NCBI GenBank assembly: GCA_003141245.1
Contig: PLLE01000043.1
Coordinates: 36,542-100,541, forward strand
Direction of reading: 5' to 3'
Origin: Chloroflexota bacterium
GTDB taxonomy: Bacteria > Chloroflexota > Limnocylindria > Limnocylindrales > CSP1-4
DNA: 64,000 nt
This document shows positions 25,566 through 33,009 of this stretch, one piece after another. The notes below the pieces were generated by a model that was not told where the DNA came from, did no database searches, and saw only the letters and a list, made by a program, of their open reading frames with translations. The translations under genes were made by a program, and so were the position numbers. Position 1 is the stretch's first letter, and each line of letters begins with the position of its first letter.

Positions 25566-27269
25566 TCAGACGGTGATCAGCTCGTGGTGCTCACCCCAGA
25601 CCTCGCGCAGTCGGTCGCAGATCTCGCCGACCGTGGCATACGCCTTCACCGCCTCGATCATGGGCGGCAGCAGGTTCTCCTCGCCACGGGCGCATTCCTC
25701 GAGCCGGCGCAGGGCCGCCTTCCATGCCACGGCATCGCGCTCCGCCCTTACCTTCTGGACGCGGGCCACCTGGCGGAGCTCGCCCTCCGGATCGATGCGC
25801 TGAAGCGGCGGCGTGGACGTTTCCTCGTCGCGGAACTTGTTGACGCCGACGACCACCTTCCGGCCGCTCTCCACAGCTCGCTGAACCTGGTATGACGACT
25901 CCTGGATCTGGCGCTGCTGGTAGCCGGCCTCGATTGCGGCGAGGGTGCCTCCGAGCGCGTCGATCTCGGCCAGGTAGTCGTTGGCGGCCTTCTCGAGGTC
26001 GTTCGTCAAAGACTCGACGTAGTAGCTGCCGGCGAGCGGGTCCGGCGTCTCGGTCACTCCCGACTCGTAGGCCAGGATCTGCTGGGTGCGAAGCGCGAGA
26101 CGCGCGGCCTCCGCTGTGGGCAGCGCCAGGGCTTCGTCGCGAGAGTTGGTGTGGAGGCTCTGGGCCCCCCCCAGGACCGCGGCCAGAGCCTGGACCGTGG
26201 TCCGGACCACGTTGTTGTCGATCGACTGGGCCGTGAGCGACGAGCCGGCGGTCTGGACGTGATAACGGCACGCCATCGAACGGGTGTTCGTGGCGCCGAA
26301 ACGCTCCTTCACGATCCGAGCCCACATCCGGCGTGCGGCTCGGAACTTGGCCACTTCCTCGAAGAGCTCACTCCACGAGGCGAAGAAGAAGCTCAGCCGG
26401 TCGGCGAATTCGTCGATGTCGAGGCCACGGCTGAGGGCAGCCTCGACGTACGCGATGCCATCGGCGAGGGTGAAGGCCAACTCCTGGGCGGCGGTGGCTC
26501 CGGCCTCACGCATGTGGTAGCCGCTGATGCTGATGGTATTCCAGCGCGGCAGCTCCTTCGAGCAGAACTCGAAGATGTCAGTCACGAGCCGCATCGAGGG
26601 CCGCGGCGGGAAGATGTACGTTCCCCGGGCGATGTACTCCTTGAGGATGTCGTTCTGGGTAGTGCCGCTGACCTGGCCTCGGGCAACGCCCTGTTTCTCG
26701 GCCGCGGCGACGTAGAGGGCCAACAGGACCGCGGCCGATGCGTTTATGGTCATGGACGTGCTGACCGTGCCGAGGGGCAGCCCGTCGAGGAGAACCTCCA
26801 TGTCGGCCAGCGAGTTGACCGGCACGCCCACCCGTCCGACCTCGCCCTCGGACTGGGGGGCGTCGGAGTCGTAGCCCAGCTGGGTCGGGAGATCGAAGGC
26901 GACCGAAAGGCCGGTCTGACCCTGCTCGAGGAGATAGCGGAACCGGCGGTTGGTCTCCTCGGCCGTGGAGAATCCCGCGTACTGGCGCATGGTCCACAGG
27001 CGTCCCCGATACATGGTCGGCTGGACGCCGCGGGTGTAGGGGTACTCGCCCGGGCGGCCCAGGTCGCGATCCTGGTCGAGGCCGGCCACGTCGGCCGGGG
27101 TGTAGAGATCCTTGACCTCGACGCCGGAGGTGGTCAGGAAGCGCTCCTGGCGTTCGGGCGAGCGGGCGAGCGCCTTCGCCCGCGTGGTGGAGCGCCACCG
27201 CTCCCGGCCCGGATCGGCCGCCGATCCGTCGTTCGCTCCGGCCTTGGGTGTCCCATGGTCCTCCGACAC
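25566..27269 (-). CDS. Methylmalonyl-CoA mutase, catalytic (TIM-barrel) domain only; probable GTG start at 27269 preceded by GGAGGA
   Basis: [50 protein letters not shown] and [12 protein letters not shown] match the MutB/Sbm substrate-binding domain. The protein ends just after ...VNKFRDEE and contains no B12-binding DxHxxG domain. Confidence 0.8.
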
Positions 27270-27556
27270 TTGCCGCTTCCTCCAGCAATGCCCAGCCGCC
27301 GATCGCACACACGTACCGGTGGATGATGGCACGGACCCGGGTCGGCCCGCCAGTCTATTCCCCGAAGGACGCCTGGGTGACGGTCGTTCGTGCCGCTTGG
27401 GTGAAGGCACGGTACATCTGGGGCCTCCGTCAAGAGCCCTCCCCTAGCCCGGCTGTCTTTGCGCAAGGACGATCAACTGTGATCGCGGCGCCGATCTGGC
27501 TTGGCGCGAGGTCCGCATTGCGCATAACTCGTTCGGGGGTGGATTAGATCCGCTGC

Positions 27557-27599: not shown

Positions 27600-27710
27600 G
27601 CTCGGCCGCGGGCGACGGGCTGCGGTAGCATCTTGACACCACTCCGCCTTCCCGGCCCCTCAGAATCGAACCGTCGCGAGACCCAGCGCTCAGTCCGAGG
27701 TGACACTCAG

Positions 27711-28478
27711 GTGGCCATTGTTATCGCGATCGCAAACCAGAAGGGTGGCGTCGGGAAGACGACCACCGCCATCAATCTGGCAGGCGCGCTCGCGGAGCAT
27801 GACCTGCGCGTGTTGTGCGTGGACATGGATGCCCAGGCCAACCTGACGGTCGGGCTCGGGATCAACCTGACGACCGTCGAGAACTCGATGGCGAACGTGC
27901 TGGGTGATCCAAGGATTAGTCTGCGGGAGATCGTGATCTCGACCGAGACTCCCAACATAGACGTCGCCCCTGCCACCCTCGATCTTGCCTCGACAGAGGT
28001 CGACCTCCTGAGCACGATCGGCCGCGAGTACGCCCTCGCCGAGGCAATCGACGACTGGGCTCGGGGCCACTACGACTACATCCTCATCGACTGCCCACCG
28101 ACGCTGGGCCTGCTCACGATCAACGGCCTGGTGGCGGCCAACGGGGTGATCATCCCCGTTCAAACCCAGTACTACGCCCTCAAGGGCCTGGCGGCCCTGG
28201 TCAAGGTCATCGCCACGATCCGCTCCAAGCTGAACAAGGACCTGCGGGTCATGGGTCTGCTTCCTACCTTCCACGACCCCCGCACCGTACTGGGCCGTGA
28301 GATGCTCGAAGAGATGCGGGAGCACACGGAGAACCACGTCTTCCAGACGATCATCCGTAACGCCGTCAAGCTCGGCGAGGCCCCTCTCACCGGCCGCCCC
28401 ATCACCGAGTACGCCAGCGGCTCGGATGCCGCCAACAACTTCCGAGAGCTCGCCAAGGAGGTAATCGCACTTGGCTAG
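27711..28478 (+). CDS. parA: Chromosome partitioning ATPase ParA/Soj (probable GTG start at 27711)
   Basis: Deviant Walker A IAIANQKGGVGKTTTAINLA, ParA signature LLIDCPPTLGLLT, and an 8-nt overlap with parB. Confidence 0.9.
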   Translation: MAIVIAIANQKGGVGKTTTAINLAGALAEHDLRVLCVDMDAQANLTVGLGINLTTVENSMANVLGDPRISLREIVISTETPNIDVAPATLDLASTEVDLLSTIGREYALAEAIDDWARGHYDYILIDCPPTLGLLTINGLVAANGVIIPVQTQYYALKGLAALVKVIATIRSKLNKDLRVMGLLPTFHDPRTVLGREMLEEMREHTENHVFQTIIRNAVKLGEAPLTGRPITEYASGSDAANNFRELAKEVIALG

Positions 28479-29490
28479 GCCAGATTTCCGGGCCGCCGCC
28501 TCTGCTCGCCTGAACGAGGAGCGAGGCCAGGAGCTCTCACACAATGTCCTCAGCCTCTTGCACGCCGATGAGACGACCGTCATCCGGCCGTCCGCGGTCC
28601 GGAACATCCCCGTCGACCGGGTAGATCCGAACCCAAACCAGCCGCGCCTGGCGATGGACCAAACGAACCTGGACGAGCTCACCTCGTCCGTCAAGCAACA
28701 CGGCGTCCTCCAGCCGATCCTGGTCCGTCCGTTGCCTGCCGGTCGCTACCAGATAGTCGCGGGCGAGCGTCGCTGGCGCGCCGCCACAGCCGCGGGCCTC
28801 AAAGAGATTCCCGCCCTGATCGAGGAGATCGACGACGACACGGCCCTCGAGATCGCAATCATCGAGAACCTCCAGCGCGAGGACCTCTCCCCGATCGACG
28901 AGGCTCAGATCTACGACAAGATGATTCGCCAGCACGGCTACAGCATCCGCAAGCTGGCCCAGAAACTCGGCAAGGACAAGGGCTATCTGGAGAACCGCCT
29001 CCGCCTGGCCGATGCCCCGCCGGAGGTACGCGAGCTGGTGTCTGTGCGCAAAGACACCCTCTCCCACGCCTACGAACTGCTCAAGGTCGCGGACCCTCGG
29101 AAGCGTAAGAAGCTGGCCGACATGGTCGCCCGCGGCGAGCTCTCGTTAGTCAAGCTGCGCGAACAGATTGGCGAGACGCCCCGGGCCAAGCGCGCCGGCA
29201 AGACCGACTCCACCGAGGCCAGCCCCGCGGGCGCCGTCGAGGACACGACCGACGTCGAAGCCAACCGGTTGGGGAGCGGCCCCAAACGTTTGCTCACCGA
29301 CGACTCGCTGATTGACGTCCGGGCTCAGCTCGCCGACGCCATTAGCGAGCTGATCTCCGTCATCCAGTCGGATGTGATGAAGTCGATCGACGACACCGAC
29401 CGCCAGAACCTGGCCAAGTTCCTGATGATCTCCCGCGTCCGGCTCGAGAACGCCACCACGCTCGTCCGGCGTGGCAGCTCCGATCACTGA
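28471..29490 (+). CDS. parB: Chromosome partitioning protein ParB/Spo0J
   Basis: ParB box motifs (LQPILVRP, IVAGERRWRAA, IIENLQREDLSPIDEA) and a C-terminal HTH and dimerisation region. Confidence 0.9.
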   Translation: MARPDFRAAASARLNEERGQELSHNVLSLLHADETTVIRPSAVRNIPVDRVDPNPNQPRLAMDQTNLDELTSSVKQHGVLQPILVRPLPAGRYQIVAGERRWRAATAAGLKEIPALIEEIDDDTALEIAIIENLQREDLSPIDEAQIYDKMIRQHGYSIRKLAQKLGKDKGYLENRLRLADAPPEVRELVSVRKDTLSHAYELLKVADPRKRKKLADMVARGELSLVKLREQIGETPRAKRAGKTDSTEASPAGAVEDTTDVEANRLGSGPKRLLTDDSLIDVRAQLADAISELISVIQSDVMKSIDDTDRQNLAKFLMISRVRLENATTLVRRGSSDH

Positions 29491-29640: not shown

Positions 29641-30363
29641 TCAGCCGGTCACGAGCAGACCGGCCGATCCCAGCGTCGCCAGCCAGCCGGCTCCCATGAC
29701 GACCACGCCGACCGCCTGAACCTCCCAGCCCAGCCGCCGTGCCCGCTCGTTCGGGGAGGCCGCAAGACCCAACCCGAGCCAGCCCAGCACCGCTCCTGCC
29801 AACTCAGCGGCCAGGCTTGCCGGAAGCGGCCCGACGACCACCGATGAGGTCACGACGGCCAGCTGCAAGAGCCCCAGGGTGAAGGCGGATCCGACCAGGG
29901 CGCGACCCCGCCCGAGTGCAGTCGCCACGGAGGCGGCCCCCGCCAGTAGATCTCTTTCGAGATCGGCCAGGGCATTCGCGAGGGCCAGTGTCGTGCCGGC
30001 CACGAATGCCAGGGGCACGATCCCCCAGAAGGCGGGAGACAGCGTGCCGGCGACTCCAAGCCACGCGTACACGGGCAGTAGCCCTACGCCGAGAGCGAAT
30101 GGTACCCAGGAGACGGCGGTCCCCTTGAGACGGAGGTCGTAGATGAGCCCGTCGGCGAGTCCCAACACGCCGACGGCAAACGCCGCTACCCCCACCGAGC
30201 CGGCGGCGCACAACCCCGCGGACGAGGCGACAACCAGGACCGCCACCGCATGGCGCGGATTCACCAGGCCGGCCGGGATTGGCTTGTCGGGACGGCTGAC
30301 TCGATCTCGGGGGGCGTCGGCGAGGTCGTTGGCGGCACCGATGGCGAACTGCAGGCCCAGCAT
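29641..30363 (-). CDS. UbiA-family prenyltransferase. The ATG-initiated ORF is N-terminally short; the in-frame upstream region (to 30576) encodes further UbiA-like sequence but has no ATG/GTG/TTG.
   Basis: NDLADAPRD (first Asp-rich motif) sits at residues 11-19 of the ATG-started ORF. The 71 codons upstream in frame read ...RRSGLARLVGFFRLVHPFPSTLDAVAAATIAL..., which is typical of the start of UbiA helix 1. A TGA lies at 30577-30579. Confidence 0.6.
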   Translation of the reverse strand: MLGLQFAIGAANDLADAPRDRVSRPDKPIPAGLVNPRHAVAVLVVASSAGLCAAGSVGVAAFAVGVLGLADGLIYDLRLKGTAVSWVPFALGVGLLPVYAWLGVAGTLSPAFWGIVPLAFVAGTTLALANALADLERDLLAGAASVATALGRGRALVGSAFTLGLLQLAVVTSSVVVGPLPASLAAELAGAVLGWLGLGLAASPNERARRLGWEVQAVGVVVMGAGWLATLGSAGLLVTG

Positions 30364-30532
30364 CCCAAGCGCGAGCCGGACGGCGACAGAAGTCTCCGCG
30401 CCGGCGATCAGGGCAATCGTTGCCGCCGCGACAGCGTCCAGCGTCGACGGGAAGGGATGGACGAGACGAAAAAAGCCGACAAGGCGAGCGAGACCGCTCC
30501 GCCGCGGCGAGTCGGCCGTGCGAGACGCCGGA

Positions 30533-30898
30533 TCAGACGTAGACGATCTCGTCGAAGTTGGCCACCAGGTACTCGATCAGGCGCGCCCTGGCATCGGGGA
30601 GCGCCGCCCGAAGCCCGCCCACGAGGCTGTGGAGTGAGATCGCCGGGACCATCAGATGGCCCTGGGCGTCGAAGCCGACCGTTTGGGGAGCGCCACCGCC
30701 ACGAGCGAATACCCGGCGCAGTTCCGCCTCGTCGAGGTGAGCGGTCCGCTGCACGTCGGTTAGGACCTTGATCACGCCCCGCCGCATGGCGACATCCCTC
30801 ATCAACTCCTTCGACCAGGAATCGAGCTGTTCGTCGGTCTGTTCGCCGAGTCTCTTGCGGTACTCCGTCGGATTGGCGGCAAGGCTCGTAGCGCCCAC
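30533..30898 (-). CDS. Hypothetical protein (121 aa), co-directional between the PlsC-like and UbiA genes
   Basis: ORF with consistent GC3 bias and no recognisable family motif; its 3' end overlaps the extended UbiA reading frame. Confidence 0.4.
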   Translation of the reverse strand: MGATSLAANPTEYRKRLGEQTDEQLDSWSKELMRDVAMRRGVIKVLTDVQRTAHLDEAELRRVFARGGGAPQTVGFDAQGHLMVPAISLHSLVGGLRAALPDARARLIEYLVANFDEIVYV

Positions 30899-31011
30899 TT
30901 CTCCTCCTTCTACTGTCGGCCGCAGTATCGCAGACTCCGTGCTGGAGCCCCGCGCCTCGGGCTCTGCACGCCGGGGCCGTCGGGACCTCGCCCAGGCGGC
31001 TCGACCGCGGA

Positions 31012-31842
31012 CTACGACGTGGCCCCGGCCGAATCTCCTCGCGGTGGAACCGGTGGTCTTGACCCCTCGGGCCAGTCGTTGAAGAGCTCGGTCAGTCTGC
31101 CGCCGATCCAGCGCGATCGGGGTGGGTCGGGATAGTCATCCACCAACTCGAGGAGGGCGTCTCGGACCCGGGCCGTCAGAACACTGACGGCCTCTGGTGT
31201 CGGTCGATCCCCGCCGATCGGCGATGGCTGGATGGGCGGTCCTACTCTCACACGCACTTGCCTCCTGAAGGCCAGCCAGCTGGTTCCGTTGATGGCCATC
31301 GGAACGATCGGCACGCCCGACCGTAGCGCCATGTAGGCCGGGCCTTCCAGCAGCGGCAGGATCACAGCCTCGCCGGCGTGGATCCTTCCCTCCCCCGCGA
31401 TGGCGATTCGATCGCCGCGGATCAGCAGCTCCTCGACTCGGCGCGTGGCCGCGACAAGCCCGCGCTTGCCGGGCCGGTAGGGCAGAGCCACGCCGCCCCA
31501 ACGCATCAGGCGGTTCCGGACGCCGTGGGTCATGTCCTCCTGTTCGGGCCCGAAGAAGTGAATCCGCGGCCTATCGGGTAATGCAGCGATCACGAAGAAC
31601 GGGTCGACCCAGTTCTGGTGGCTGAAACAGACGATCGCCGGCCCGGAGGGCAGCAGCTCGGCTCCCTCCAGCCTGAATCCTGAATACGCCCTCGTAACGA
31701 CGCCCAGGGCGATCCTGATCAGCCGAAACCGTCGATACGACCTCGCGGGAGCCTGAACCCCGAGTCGATCGGCCCTGGACGCCGAGATCGGGACCGAATC
31801 GCCCCCCTCGGGCATTCGCTCGCCGGACGGCCTTCTGAACAT
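31012..31842 (-). CDS. plsC: 1-acyl-sn-glycerol-3-phosphate acyltransferase (PlsC/LPLAT) family protein; start at MFRRPSG
   Basis: Acyltransferase HX4D motif FSHQNWVDP plus FFGPEQE and PMAINGT blocks. The annotated 377-aa ORF's N-terminus runs through the opposite-strand promoter and is not coding. Confidence 0.7.
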   Translation of the reverse strand: MFRRPSGERMPEGGDSVPISASRADRLGVQAPARSYRRFRLIRIALGVVTRAYSGFRLEGAELLPSGPAIVCFSHQNWVDPFFVIAALPDRPRIHFFGPEQEDMTHGVRNRLMRWGGVALPYRPGKRGLVAATRRVEELLIRGDRIAIAGEGRIHAGEAVILPLLEGPAYMALRSGVPIVPMAINGTSWLAFRRQVRVRVGPPIQPSPIGGDRPTPEAVSVLTARVRDALLELVDDYPDPPRSRWIGGRLTELFNDWPEGSRPPVPPRGDSAGATS

Positions 31843-31981: not shown

Positions 31982-32413
31982 ATGTTTGAGAGCGATCGTA
32001 CCGTGATTGAGAACATCTCGGGGGTTGACTTGGTGATCGGCAGGTCAACCGTTCGACGCCGAATCCTCGCCCTCCTGATGGCCGGGCCGGAGCGGCGTTT
32101 GCACCTGCGCGAGATCCAGCGTCGTGCCACCACCAGCCCGGGCACCGCCAGCCGAGAACTTGGGCGACTCGTCGCCTCGGGCCTCGTCGAGCGCGAGGCC
32201 GAGGGGCACCAGGTCTACTTCCGCACCATCACCTCGCCCTATGCGACGATGATCCGGACCCTGCTCGGGGTCCCCGCCGCGCCGGCGTCGGCAGCCGAAC
32301 CGATCGCCCCGCCTCCTGCCGAACCCGAGACCGAGGGCGAGGGCGAGTCTCGTCAGTTGATGCTGTTCACCAGCGCGCCGCTACGCGACGATTGCCGCGA
32401 CCGATGGGCCTGA
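31982..32413 (+). CDS. Winged-helix transcriptional regulator (ArsR/MarR-like HTH) with a Pro/Ala-rich C-terminal tail
   Basis: ILALLMAGPERRLHLREIQRRATTSPGTASRELGRLVASGLVERE is an HTH plus wing; the stop overlaps the tag start region. Confidence 0.55.
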   Translation: MFESDRTVIENISGVDLVIGRSTVRRRILALLMAGPERRLHLREIQRRATTSPGTASRELGRLVASGLVEREAEGHQVYFRTITSPYATMIRTLLGVPAAPASAAEPIAPPPAEPETEGEGESRQLMLFTSAPLRDDCRDRWA

Positions 32414-32424
32414 CAAGACAGCCG

Positions 32425-33009
32425 ATGGAGCCAGGCGATCGGCCACGCTGCTGGTGGCCGAATGGGATCGCCGGGGTCGACTCGCTCATGGTCGCCTATC
32501 ACGATGAGGAGTGGGGCGAGCCCGTCTCGGACGACCGCACGCTGTTCGAGCGCCTTGCGCTGGAAGGCTTCCAGGCCGGACTCTCCTGGGCGACGATCCT
32601 GCGCAAGCGCGAGGCCTTCCGCCGAGCCTTCGTCGACTTCGAGCCGAAGGTCGTCGCCGGATTCGGCGATCTCGACCGTGAACGCCTCCTGGCGGACCCC
32701 GGAATCGTCCGCAATCGAGCCAAGATCGACGCCACGATCGGCAACGCCGCGCAGGTCCTGGCCCTCGCTGCCGAATGCGGCTCTTTCGCGGCCTATCTGG
32801 CGGCCAGGCTTCCTCGCCCCACCCCTACGTTGGCACACGGATCGGGCTGGGCGGACGTGCCGGCAACCGCGCCGGAATCCGACGCACTGTCGGCCGACTT
32901 GCGTCGTCTAGGCTTCCGATTCGTCGGCTCGACGATCGTCTACAGCTTCATGCAAAGCGTCGGCCTCGTGGACGACCATCTGCCCGGCTGCTACCGGCAT
33001 CGCGGCTGA
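32425..33009 (+). CDS. tag: DNA-3-methyladenine glycosylase I
   Basis: RCWWPNG...YHDEEWGEPVSDDRTLFERLALEGFQAGLSWATILRKREAFR matches Tag (Zn-binding C..H..H..C region and an HhH). Confidence 0.85.
   Translation: MEPGDRPRCWWPNGIAGVDSLMVAYHDEEWGEPVSDDRTLFERLALEGFQAGLSWATILRKREAFRRAFVDFEPKVVAGFGDLDRERLLADPGIVRNRAKIDATIGNAAQVLALAAECGSFAAYLAARLPRPTPTLAHGSGWADVPATAPESDALSADLRRLGFRFVGSTIVYSFMQSVGLVDDHLPGCYRHRG

What the first reader, a model, noticed from the sequence alone, without database searches (positions are those of the whole stretch)
29641..31842. PlsC-like acyltransferase, hypothetical and UbiA prenyltransferase operon in which the UbiA gene has no canonical start codon
Three co-directional minus-strand genes suggest a lipid or prenyl-lipid pathway. 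The UbiA ORF beginning at its only ATG places the first Asp-rich motif (NDLADAPRD) at residues 11-19, too near the N-terminus for this family. The 71 in-frame codons upstream encode a typical UbiA helix-1 region (LARLVGFFRLVHPFPSTLDAV...), yet contain no ATG, GTG or TTG before the in-frame TGA at 30577. The gene therefore either uses a non-standard initiation codon (for example CTG or ATC), carries a frameshift at its 5' end, or is a recent pseudogene.
Basis: seen in the sequence. Interest (0 to 1): 0.55.

Follow-up and report, generated by a model that had tools for sequence, protein, structure and literature searches.

The report
UbiA gene lacking any start codon

Summary
The minus-strand UbiA frame is open from the TGA at 30579-30577, but its only ATG/GTG/TTG is the ATG at 30363. 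The 35 codons before that ATG encode an invariant helix 1 (RxVHPFPS) that belongs to the UbiA fold.

It is not an assembly error: two independent assemblies are identical there, and relatives show no indel. It is not a pseudogene: 19 of 50 distinct orthologous loci also lack a canonical start, yet all keep intact ORFs, and helix 1 has a dN/dS like the rest of the gene.

The distance from the stop of the upstream 121-aa gene (hyp121) to helix 1 takes ten different lengths, and 46 of 50 are 1 mod 3. In contrast, the spacer upstream of hyp121 is not frame-locked, and hyp121 always has AGGAGG plus GTG/ATG. Canonical start triplets before helix 1 occur only at the chance rate.

The UbiA frame is therefore most likely entered at the end of hyp121, through translational coupling at a near-cognate codon. 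In this window only ACG is available. A +1 recoding event that makes a hyp121-UbiA fusion is not excluded. The mechanism is inferred, not shown.

The parts
31012..31842 (-). PlsC-like acyltransferase CDS (276 aa, start at ATG 31842)
   Evidence: PF01553 E=3e-11, above the gathering score. The HX4D motif FSHQNWVDPF can be read directly in the translation. The first ATG is the conserved one in L002 and L003. The gene lies upstream of hyp121 in every locus that extends far enough.
30533..30898 (-). hyp121: a conserved 121-aa protein of unknown function, with its GTG start at 30898 and TGA stop at 30535-30533
   Evidence: No Pfam, NCBIfam or PADLOC hit. It has 1162 homologues, nearly all exactly 121 aa and 70-99% identical. 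The AF2 model has pLDDT 91, is mostly helical, and has no PDB fold match.
30903..30908 (-). AGGAGG Shine-Dalgarno sequence of hyp121, 4 nt before its GTG
   Evidence: Read. An AGGAGG-type motif followed by GTG or ATG is present in 37 of 37 loci.
30533..30559 (-). Junction block: the last 8 codons of hyp121 (NFDEIVYV) plus its stop, overlapped by the open UbiA frame. It contains ACG 30552-30550 and ACG 30540-30538.
   Evidence: Synonymous-codon identity is 1.48x expectation here, against 0.95-1.26 in the 14 other 8-codon windows. In L009, L010, L043 and L061 the UbiA frame opens only 10 codons before the hyp121 stop, so any shared entry point must lie in this stretch.
30469..30532 (-). Linker between the hyp121 stop and helix 1 (peptide DPASRTADSPRRSGLARLVGFF in the UbiA frame; its first codon, GAT 30534-30532, overlaps the stop by two bases). 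It holds no canonical start and a third ACG at 30519-30517.
   Evidence: The length is frame-locked across relatives: 46 of 50 are 1 mod 3 over ten different lengths. GC by codon position in the second half is .76/.61/.82, which is coding-like. The sequence itself is nearly unconstrained.
30364..30468 (-). Helix-1 / early helix-2 coding region of UbiA (RLVHPFPSTLDAV...RLALG), upstream of the only ATG
   Evidence: H, P, P, S, L, A and G are invariant in 36 homologues. Substitutions by codon position are 46/36/151. dN/dS is 0.12-0.76 between start-less pairs. In the AF2 model this region forms helices 15-31 and 36-68.
29641..30363 (-). Rest of the UbiA CDS, from the conserved internal Met (ATG 30363) to the stop
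   Evidence: PF01040 E=1.3e-25. The Asp-rich motifs NDLADAPRD and NALADLERD are present. Foldseek matches 7bpu, 6m31 and 4od5 over 270-285 columns.
30468..30482 (-). Window-specific feature: an out-of-frame TTG (30482-30480) followed by the heptamer U UUU UUC (30474-30468), from which a -1 slip would land in the UbiA frame
   Evidence: Read directly. The T6 run arose from the same G-to-T change that removed the in-frame TTG found in the 97%-identical L001, L006 and L039. It is not conserved elsewhere.

Best explanation
The gene encodes a full-length, functional UbiA-superfamily intramembrane prenyltransferase. Its N-terminus lies at or near the 3' end of the upstream gene hyp121, not at ATG 30363.

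Proposed mechanism: hyp121 is translated efficiently from a strong AGGAGG-GTG site. Ribosomes finishing hyp121 at TGA 30535-30533 then give rise to a small amount of UbiA by translational coupling (termination-reinitiation or local scanning). They use a weak near-cognate codon in the +1 frame inside or just after the overlap. In this window the only candidates are ACG 30540-30538, ACG 30552-30550 and ACG 30519-30517. The product carries a 20-30-residue Arg/Pro-rich cytoplasmic tail before helix 1.

In relatives, in-frame GTG, ATG, TTG, CTG or ATC codons come and go in this tail without being required.

Confidence by step:
- The gene is intact and the N-terminus is upstream of the ATG: shown, about 0.9.
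- The frame is set at the end of hyp121: inferred from the frame lock, about 0.7.
- Entry is by initiation at ACG or another near-cognate rather than by recoding: inferred, about 0.45.
For: N-terminus and integrity:
- Helix 1 is invariant and part of the fold. ATG 30363 is residue 46 of the model, inside helix 36-68.
- Helix 1 is under purifying selection in start-less lineages: dN/dS 0.12-0.76 against 0.2-0.35 for the rest of the gene, and codon-position differences of 46/36/151.
- The junction is identical in independent assemblies, and close relatives show no indel.

No requirement for a canonical start:
- Nineteen of 50 distinct loci have no canonical start, and all 19 are frame-locked.
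- The number of canonical triplets per locus fits chance: 19 loci with zero observed, 17.7 expected. Where such triplets exist, their positions are scattered.

Frame lock:
- Ten different linker lengths from 37 to 121 nt occur, and 46 of 50 are 1 mod 3.
- The three clean exceptions (L020, L021, L078) each have their own GTG or TTG in the linker.
- As a control, the acyltransferase-to-hyp121 spacer (63-206 nt) falls in all three classes (8/11/18), and hyp121 has an SD plus GTG/ATG in 37 of 37 loci.

Junction block:
- Synonymous conservation is raised exactly in the last 8 hyp121 codons.
- Synonymous variants that would create ATG or TTG in the UbiA frame there are rare. From the counts, my own arithmetic gives about 25 expected and 4 seen (TTT 0/31, TAT 0/31, GAT 3/27).

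Plausibility of the mechanism:
- In E. coli, ACG supports initiation at roughly 0.1-1% of AUG, with Met at the N-terminus (10.1101/063800).
- Post-termination ribosomes can restart tens of nucleotides either side of a stop, without an SD (PMC12548453).
Against: - No experiment bears on this. All the data come from metagenome assemblies.
- ACG is among the weakest near-cognates.
- Neither ACG is universal in start-less loci. The first is AGG in the L022 clade, and the second is ACA in L077.
- No convincing SD precedes either ACG.
- The first half of the linker shows no codon-position bias in substitutions (28/31/31). Its translation therefore rests only on the frame lock and on weak GC periodicity.
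- Synonymous conservation at the gene end could instead reflect a termination-context or codon-bias effect.
Confidence: 0.45

Rival explanations
1. Programmed +1 recoding at or near the hyp121 stop. A fraction of ribosomes shift from the hyp121 frame into the UbiA frame (for example GUC U GAU) and make a hyp121-linker-UbiA fusion of about 420 aa. hyp121 would then be a cytoplasmic N-terminal domain of the enzyme.
For: - The frame relation is +1 in 46 of 50 loci despite ten different linker lengths.
- Canonical starts are not selected for.
- The UbiA frame is open across the stop in all but one locus.
- A block conserved at synonymous sites sits at the hyp121 end.
- The window's UGA U context resembles the antizyme shift site UCC UGA U (my own knowledge).
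- GeneTack-type analyses treat a conserved frame transition without a co-located start as a signature of programmed frameshifting (PMC3711429).
Against: - There is no slippery P-site codon: GUC, GUU, GCC or AUC followed by U re-pair poorly in +1.
- The stop is TGA in most loci but TAG in L016, L048, L049 and L026, and the base after it varies.
- There is no prfB-like SD 3 nt upstream.
- There is no RNA structure (z=+1.07) and no Rfam hit.
- No clean in-frame hyp121-UbiA fusion exists among 120 + 128 listed homologues. The long proteins found are noisy ORFs with multiple frameshifts.
- UbiA evidently works on its own where the lock is broken (L020, L021, L078, L026).
Confidence: 0.15
2. A recent loss-of-function allele in this particular lineage. 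The real start of this subclade was the in-frame TTG seen in the 97%-identical relatives (GGC TTG TTT). The window's G-to-T change destroyed it, and the gene is a young pseudogene or a very weak hypomorph.
For: L001, L006 and L039 have TTG exactly where the window has TTT. Divergence from them is too small to measure selection on the window allele itself.
Against: - The allele is carried on 5 contigs from several assemblies, so it is a population variant.
- The ORF is fully intact.
- L002, the next relative, also has no canonical start at a different sequence.
- Start-less orthologues persist under purifying selection with dS above 1.
- The TTG lies 2 codons before helix 1, has no SD, and does not explain the frame lock.
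Confidence: 0.1
3. A window-specific rescue. Initiation occurs at the out-of-frame TTG 30482-30480, followed three codons later by a -1 tandem slip on U UUU UUC (30474-30468), or by transcriptional slippage on the T6 run. This would give MSAFF-RLVHPFPS...
For: The heptamer fits the X XXY YYZ pattern in the TTG frame, and the slip lands exactly in the UbiA frame. It was created by the same mutation that removed the in-frame TTG.
Against: It is not present in any other start-less locus. There is no SD at a usable distance (GGAG lies 14 nt upstream). There is no stimulatory structure. It requires two inefficient steps, and it does not explain the frame lock.
Confidence: 0.07
4. The short protein is genuine. 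Translation starts at ATG 30363 and this subfamily works without helix 1.
For: The Met is conserved in all homologues, and 21 of 120 database proteins are called from it.
Against: The upstream 35 codons are conserved at the protein level with third-position-biased substitutions. The ATG falls in the middle of a transmembrane helix of a pLDDT-96 model that superposes on full-length UbiA-family structures. In solved relatives the first Asp motif sits at about residue 58-60.
Confidence: 0.03
5. A sequencing or assembly error (an indel in the T6 run or a miscalled base) hides a normal start.
For: A homopolymer lies next to an out-of-frame TTG.
Against: An ENA MEGAHIT contig and a Logan assembly of a different run are identical over the whole junction. 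Relatives have the same length through this stretch. Eighteen other distinct loci show the same absence.
Confidence: 0.01

Closest known systems
UbiA-superfamily intramembrane prenyltransferases (DGGGP synthase 6M31/7BPU, ApUbiA 4OD4/4OD5, AfUbiA 4TQ3, chlorophyll synthase 9SAU)
   Same: Pfam PF01040 is matched. There are two Asp-rich motifs (NDxxDxxxD and NxxxDxxxD). The all-helical fold aligns over the full length (Foldseek E 5e-8 to 3e-6, TM up to 0.76). The first motif lies about 57 residues after the start of the domain.
   Different: Sequence identity to any solved or named subfamily is only 14-19%. All NCBIfam equivalogs score far below their cut-offs (best 61 bits against a cut-off of 269), so the substrate is unknown. 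The helix-1 motif RxVHPFPSxLDA is specific to the lineage. The gene has no conserved start codon.
Translational coupling by termination-reinitiation at overlapping gene pairs (ATGA / TGATG type; phage fr/MS2 coat-lysis scanning)
   Same: The downstream gene has no SD of its own, lies at the stop of a well-translated upstream gene, and is in a fixed frame relation to it. Known cases tolerate restarts tens of nucleotides from the stop (PMC12548453).
   Different: Known cases restart at AUG, GUG or UUG. Here a canonical start within 10 nt of the stop is present in only a few loci (L003, L045, L057, L020, L021) and is absent in 19 of 50. The overlap is not the -4/-1 type.
prfB (RF2) +1 programmed frameshift, and antizyme UCC UGA U
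   Same: A +1 frame relation across an in-frame stop, conserved across many genomes, with a nucleotide block conserved beyond coding needs.
   Different: There is no CUU-U-type re-pairing site, no SD 3 nt upstream, variable stop identity and 3' context, and no downstream structure. Both ORFs are separate functional proteins in some relatives.
Near-cognate initiation in bacteria (infC AUU; the measurements of all 64 codons in E. coli)
   Same: A weak non-AUG codon is used to keep expression low. ACG measurably initiates with Met (10.1101/063800).
   Different: Natural bacterial genes are not known (to my knowledge) to depend on ACG. Here no single near-cognate is conserved across all start-less loci.
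PlsC / LPLAT acyltransferases (PF01553)
   Same: The neighbouring gene matches PF01553 and carries the HX4D catalytic motif.
   Different: It scores below the TIGR00530 cut-off (39 against 103 bits), so it is not shown to be a 1-acylglycerol-3-phosphate acyltransferase. Its link to the prenyltransferase rests on synteny only.

Membership tests
UbiA prenyltransferase superfamily (PF01040) | Profile match above the curated gathering score | tested here: met
   90.6 bits against a cut-off of 34.2, E=1.3e-25.
UbiA prenyltransferase superfamily (PF01040) | Two Asp-rich motifs (N/DDxxDxxxD and DxxxD) on cytoplasmic loops | tested here: met
   NDLADAPRD and NALADLERD are in the translation. N57, D58, D61, D65, N175, D179 and D183 are invariant in 36 homologues.
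UbiA prenyltransferase superfamily (PF01040) | A helical bundle of about nine transmembrane helices, including TM1 ahead of the first Asp motif | tested here: met
   The AF2 model has pLDDT 96.2 and pTM 0.92. Foldseek matches 7bpu_A (E=5e-8, 280 columns) and 4od5_A (TM 0.76). This holds only when the 46 residues upstream of ATG 30363 are included.
Named UbiA subfamilies (DGGGP synthase, ChlG/BchG, UbiA/MenA, EboC, SCO3242) | Score above the NCBIfam equivalog or subfamily cut-off | tested here: not met
   The best hit is PRK12884 at 61.5 bits against 269. All 17 hits are far below their cut-offs.
PlsC-type acyltransferase (PF01553) | Pfam match above the gathering score, plus the HX4D motif | tested here: met
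   43.7 bits against 23. The motif H-QNWV-D is in FSHQNWVDPF.
1-acylglycerol-3-phosphate O-acyltransferase (TIGR00530) | Score above the curated cut-off | tested here: not met
   39.2 bits against 102.95.
Classical translational coupling (termination-reinitiation) | A canonical start codon overlapping, or within a few nucleotides of, the upstream stop | tested here: not met
   There is none in the window. A canonical start is found within about 10 nt of the stop only in L003, L045, L057, L020 and L021.
Classical translational coupling (termination-reinitiation) | Downstream expression depends on translation of the upstream ORF | not testable with these tools
   This needs reporter constructs. 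The only indirect evidence is the frame lock and the lack of an own SD or start.
prfB-like +1 programmed ribosomal frameshift | A conserved shift site whose P-site tRNA can re-pair in +1, next to a slowly decoded or stop codon | tested here: not met
   The codon before the stop is GTC, GTT, GCC or ATC, and its +1 re-pairing is poor. The stop is TGA or TAG.
prfB-like +1 programmed ribosomal frameshift | A stimulatory element (an SD about 3 nt upstream, or a downstream structure) | tested here: not met
   GACGAG / GAGGAG lies 9 nt upstream of the last sense codon. The fold z-score is +1.07.
prfB-like +1 programmed ribosomal frameshift | Homologues in which the two ORFs are fused in one frame | tested here: inconclusive
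   None were found among the 120 best hyp121 hits, the 120 best UbiA hits or the 128 representatives. The long ORFs found are error-ridden. Only the top of the 1162 hits could be inspected.

The most novel reading that the evidence does not exclude
Across a whole bacterial class, the UbiA frame is entered from the end of hyp121 by a mechanism that needs no start codon. This would be either a new type of +1 recoding at a non-slippery GUC-UGA/UAG site that yields a hyp121-UbiA fusion, or start-codon-independent reinitiation. The scattered canonical starts seen in relatives would then be irrelevant.
Probability: 0.18. Interest if true: 0.85.

Novelty: new variant of a known kind. Interest (0 to 1): 0.62.

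Why it matters
If correct, this is a natural case spanning a whole lineage in which an essential-looking membrane enzyme is made without ATG, GTG or TTG and depends on the reading of the gene in front of it. That bears on three questions: how strictly bacteria need start codons when genes are coupled; how low-abundance membrane proteins are throttled; and whether non-slippery +1 recoding exists in bacteria.

There is also a practical consequence. Half of the database entries for this protein family are N-terminally truncated gene calls. These would fail in structure prediction, topology prediction or expression. Gene finders restricted to ATG/GTG/TTG will systematically mis-annotate such genes.

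Finally, the work flags hyp121, a very conserved protein of unknown fold, as a likely functional partner of a lipid-modifying prenyltransferase / acyltransferase pair in the abundant soil and peat group Limnocylindria.

Tried and rejected
1. Homopolymer indel. The out-of-frame TTG followed by T6 suggested a one-base assembly error. This was rejected because relatives keep the same length and independent assemblies are identical.

2. Natural hyp121-UbiA fusions. None were found among the top hits or the 50%-identity representatives. The 300-470-aa proteins are multi-frameshift artefacts.

3. RNA elements. There is no Rfam match, no significant fold at the junction, no tRNA in the window, and no promoter-like or terminator-like sites.

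4. Absence of stops in the linker as evidence of coding. This was uninformative in such GC-rich DNA: 1, 3 and 10 of 39 loci have stops in the three frames.

5. Other genes in the window with the same defect. A crude GC3-based scan found long start-less 5' stretches only where an ORF overlaps a neighbouring gene in another frame. It was not pursued further.

6. Function of hyp121. Pfam, NCBIfam, PADLOC and Foldseek against the PDB all gave nothing.

7. Literature. Searches on Limnocylindria found nothing on start codons.

8. CTG overlapping the stop (GTC TGA). It lies in the third frame, not the UbiA frame, so it was rejected.
Full report
**What is in the window**

On the minus strand there are three co-directional genes:
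- A PlsC-like acyltransferase (31842..31012; PF01553, E=3e-11; HX4D motif FSHQNWVDPF).
- A 121-aa protein with no family match, here called hyp121 (30898..30533). It is preceded by AGGAGG 4 nt before its GTG.
- A UbiA-family gene (PF01040, E=1.3e-25) ending at 29641.

The UbiA frame is open from the TGA at 30579-30577. Its only ATG/GTG/TTG is the ATG at 30363. The 71 codons before that ATG read ...TSDPASRTADSPRRSGLARLVGFFRLVHPFPSTLDAVAAATIALIAGAETSVAVRLALG.

The Asp motif is at residues 12-20 of the ATG-started protein, not 11-19. Only three ACG codons do (30552-50, 30540-38, 30519-17).

**The N-terminus really lies upstream of the ATG**

- The Pfam match starts at profile position 8, upstream of the ATG.
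- In 36 homologues at 50-87% identity, the motif R-x-V-H-P-F-P-S-x-L-D-A and the following A-G are invariant or nearly so.
- An AlphaFold model of the extended protein has pLDDT 96.2 and pTM 0.92. It has helices at residues 2-12, 15-31 and 36-68.
- That model superposes over its full length on DGGGP synthase (7bpu, 6m31), AfUbiA and ApUbiA (4od5, TM 0.76).
- ATG 30363 corresponds to residue 46, in the middle of the second long helix.
- In solved relatives the first Asp motif sits at about residue 58-60.

No named UbiA subfamily is matched, so the substrate is unknown.

**Not an error and not an indel**

The closest relatives (L001, L006, L039; 97% identical) read GGC TTG TTT CGT where the window reads GGC TTT TTT CGT. 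L002 reads TTC ATT and L003-5 read TTC CTT. All have the same length, so the T6 run is a substitution, not a slip. The exact 240-aa product occurs on five contigs. An ENA contig (L091) and a Logan assembly of another run (L092) are base-identical to the window across the whole junction.

**Not a pseudogene, and not confined to this genome**

Scans of genome and metagenome collections gave 50 distinct junctions in which hyp121 precedes the UbiA gene. All are from Limnocylindria-type Chloroflexota MAGs. Synteny is conserved: MarR, acyltransferase, hyp121, UbiA, then convergent parB and parA.

- Nineteen of the 50 have no ATG, GTG or TTG between the in-frame stop and helix 1. This includes most of one deep subclade (L022, L023, L071, L072).
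- The 13 start-less loci examined in detail keep 273-275-codon ORFs.
- Between start-less pairs, helix 1 has dN/dS 0.12-0.76, against 0.2-0.35 for the rest of the gene, with dS often above 1.
- Differences by codon position in helix 1 are 46/36/151.
- Where canonical starts exist, they sit anywhere from 2 to 50 codons before helix 1.
- In 45 clean loci there are 44 such triplets in 1834 codons. The number of loci with none (19) equals the chance expectation (17.7).

So there is no sign that a canonical start is selected for. Consistently, 60 of the 120 best database homologues are gene-called from a point downstream of helix 1, 21 of them from the conserved Met.

**The frame lock**

The distance from the hyp121 stop to the Arg codon of helix 1 takes the values 37, 40, 43, 61, 64, 67, 73, 79, 112 and 121 nt. 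In 46 of 50 junctions it is 1 mod 3.

- The exceptions are L020 and L021 (36 nt) and L078 (114 nt), each with its own GTG or TTG in the linker.
- The fourth exception is L037 (68 nt), a long-read MAG with further frameshifts in both genes.
- Counting at least nine in-frame length changes against two out-of-frame ones, the chance probability is about 1e-3 or less (my arithmetic).

The spacer upstream of hyp121 serves as an internal control. It varies from 63 to 206 nt and falls in all three residue classes (8/11/18). In the same loci hyp121 carries an AGGAGG-type SD and GTG or ATG in 37 of 37 cases. This lineage therefore uses normal initiation signals, and the UbiA gene is the anomaly.

The linker is Arg/Pro/Ala/Gly-rich. 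GC by codon position is coding-like in its second half (.76/.61/.82) and ambiguous in its first half. Its substitutions show little or no codon-position bias. This fits an unconstrained tail whose length, but not sequence, matters.

In several loci the UbiA frame opens only ten codons before the hyp121 stop. The last eight hyp121 codons (NFDEIVYV) are also the one stretch of that gene with excess synonymous conservation: 1.48x expectation, against 0.95-1.26 elsewhere. There TTC is 31/31, GAG 30/31, GTC 30/31 and TAC 31/31. Synonymous alternatives that would create TTG or ATG in the UbiA frame there (TTT, GAT, TAT) are strongly under-used relative to the same amino acids elsewhere in hyp121. 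This last point is my arithmetic on the counts.

**Mechanism**

The data say that the UbiA reading frame is set at the 3' end of hyp121 and that no canonical codon is needed.

The most economical reading is translational coupling. Ribosomes terminating on a well-translated hyp121 restart locally at a weak near-cognate codon. Restarts tens of nucleotides from a stop, without an SD, are documented (PMC12548453). ACG initiates at about 0.1-1% of AUG in E. coli and yields N-terminal Met (10.1101/063800). The avoidance of strong starts in the overlap would fit a need for very low UbiA output.

This reading has weaknesses. No single near-cognate is universal: the first ACG is AGG in one clade, and the second is ACA in L077. 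No SD is evident. Nothing has been tested experimentally.

The main rival is +1 recoding at the stop, giving a hyp121-UbiA fusion. It explains the lock equally well. However, it lacks a slippery codon, a stimulator, a conserved stop context and any clean natural fusion.

For the window alone there are two further possibilities. One is a young null allele created by loss of the TTG seen in its 97% relatives. The other is initiation at the out-of-frame TTG 30482 followed by a -1 slip on U UUU UUC (30474-30468).

**What the cluster does**

Only the family level is established: an intramembrane prenyltransferase, an HX4D acyltransferase, and a very conserved small helical protein of unknown fold (pLDDT 91, no PDB match). 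The three are kept together across the class. A role in making or modifying a prenylated or acylated lipid is an inference from family membership and synteny.

**Verdict**

The notable result is the family-wide absence of a required start codon, combined with a frame lock to the upstream stop. To my knowledge this has not been described. It is best classed as a new variant of translational coupling or near-cognate initiation, with a minority chance of being a new recoding mechanism.

Noticed in passing
window 30533-30898 (-): hyp121 is a lineage-restricted protein of exactly 121 aa. It has 1162 homologues at 70-99% identity and is more conserved than the UbiA gene next to it. It gives a confident helical AF2 model (pLDDT 91) that matches nothing in the PDB, and it has no Pfam, NCBIfam or PADLOC hit. 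Its function is unknown.
   Followed up: partly
L001:583-660, L006, L039 (equivalent to window ~30515-30530): The 97%-identical relatives carry a 12-nt expansion of a GGCGTC hexamer directly after the hyp121 stop. It encodes (AS)n in the UbiA frame, and the hexamer repeat preserves the frame.
   Followed up: partly
database proteins P0006, P0007, P0018, P0059 and others (homologues of window 29641-30540): Half (60 of 120) of the best public homologues are annotated with N-termini that cut away the invariant helix 1. Some loci (L003-L005) do have an in-frame GTG that the gene caller ignored in favour of the downstream ATG.
   Followed up: yes
window 27600-29490 (+) and 25566-27443 (-): The cluster is convergent with parA and parB homologues (ParB_N / HTH_ParB and ParA / CbiA hits on the identical contig L091 and on L001-L005). 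A methylmalonyl-CoA-mutase-like gene lies beyond them. The arrangement is conserved in all relatives with enough flank.
   Followed up: partly
window 31982-32413 (+) and 32392-33009 (+): A MarR-family regulator gene is transcribed divergently from the acyltransferase. It is followed by a DNA-3-methyladenine glycosylase I-like ORF (Adenine_glyco in relatives). On the coordinates of the mechanically listed ORFs, the second ORF begins 22 nt before the first one ends.
   Followed up: no
window 31815-31842 (-): Gene callers on the identical contigs start the acyltransferase at the second ATG (267 aa). The first ATG (31842, 276 aa) is the one conserved in L002 and L003, where the second Met is absent.
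   Followed up: partly
L037, L038 and proteins P0311, P0315, P0337, P0343: Long-read-derived MAGs of this clade carry many frameshifts in these GC-rich genes. These produce spurious 300-470-aa chimeric ORFs that look like hyp121-UbiA fusions, which is a trap for fusion-based inference.
   Followed up: yes
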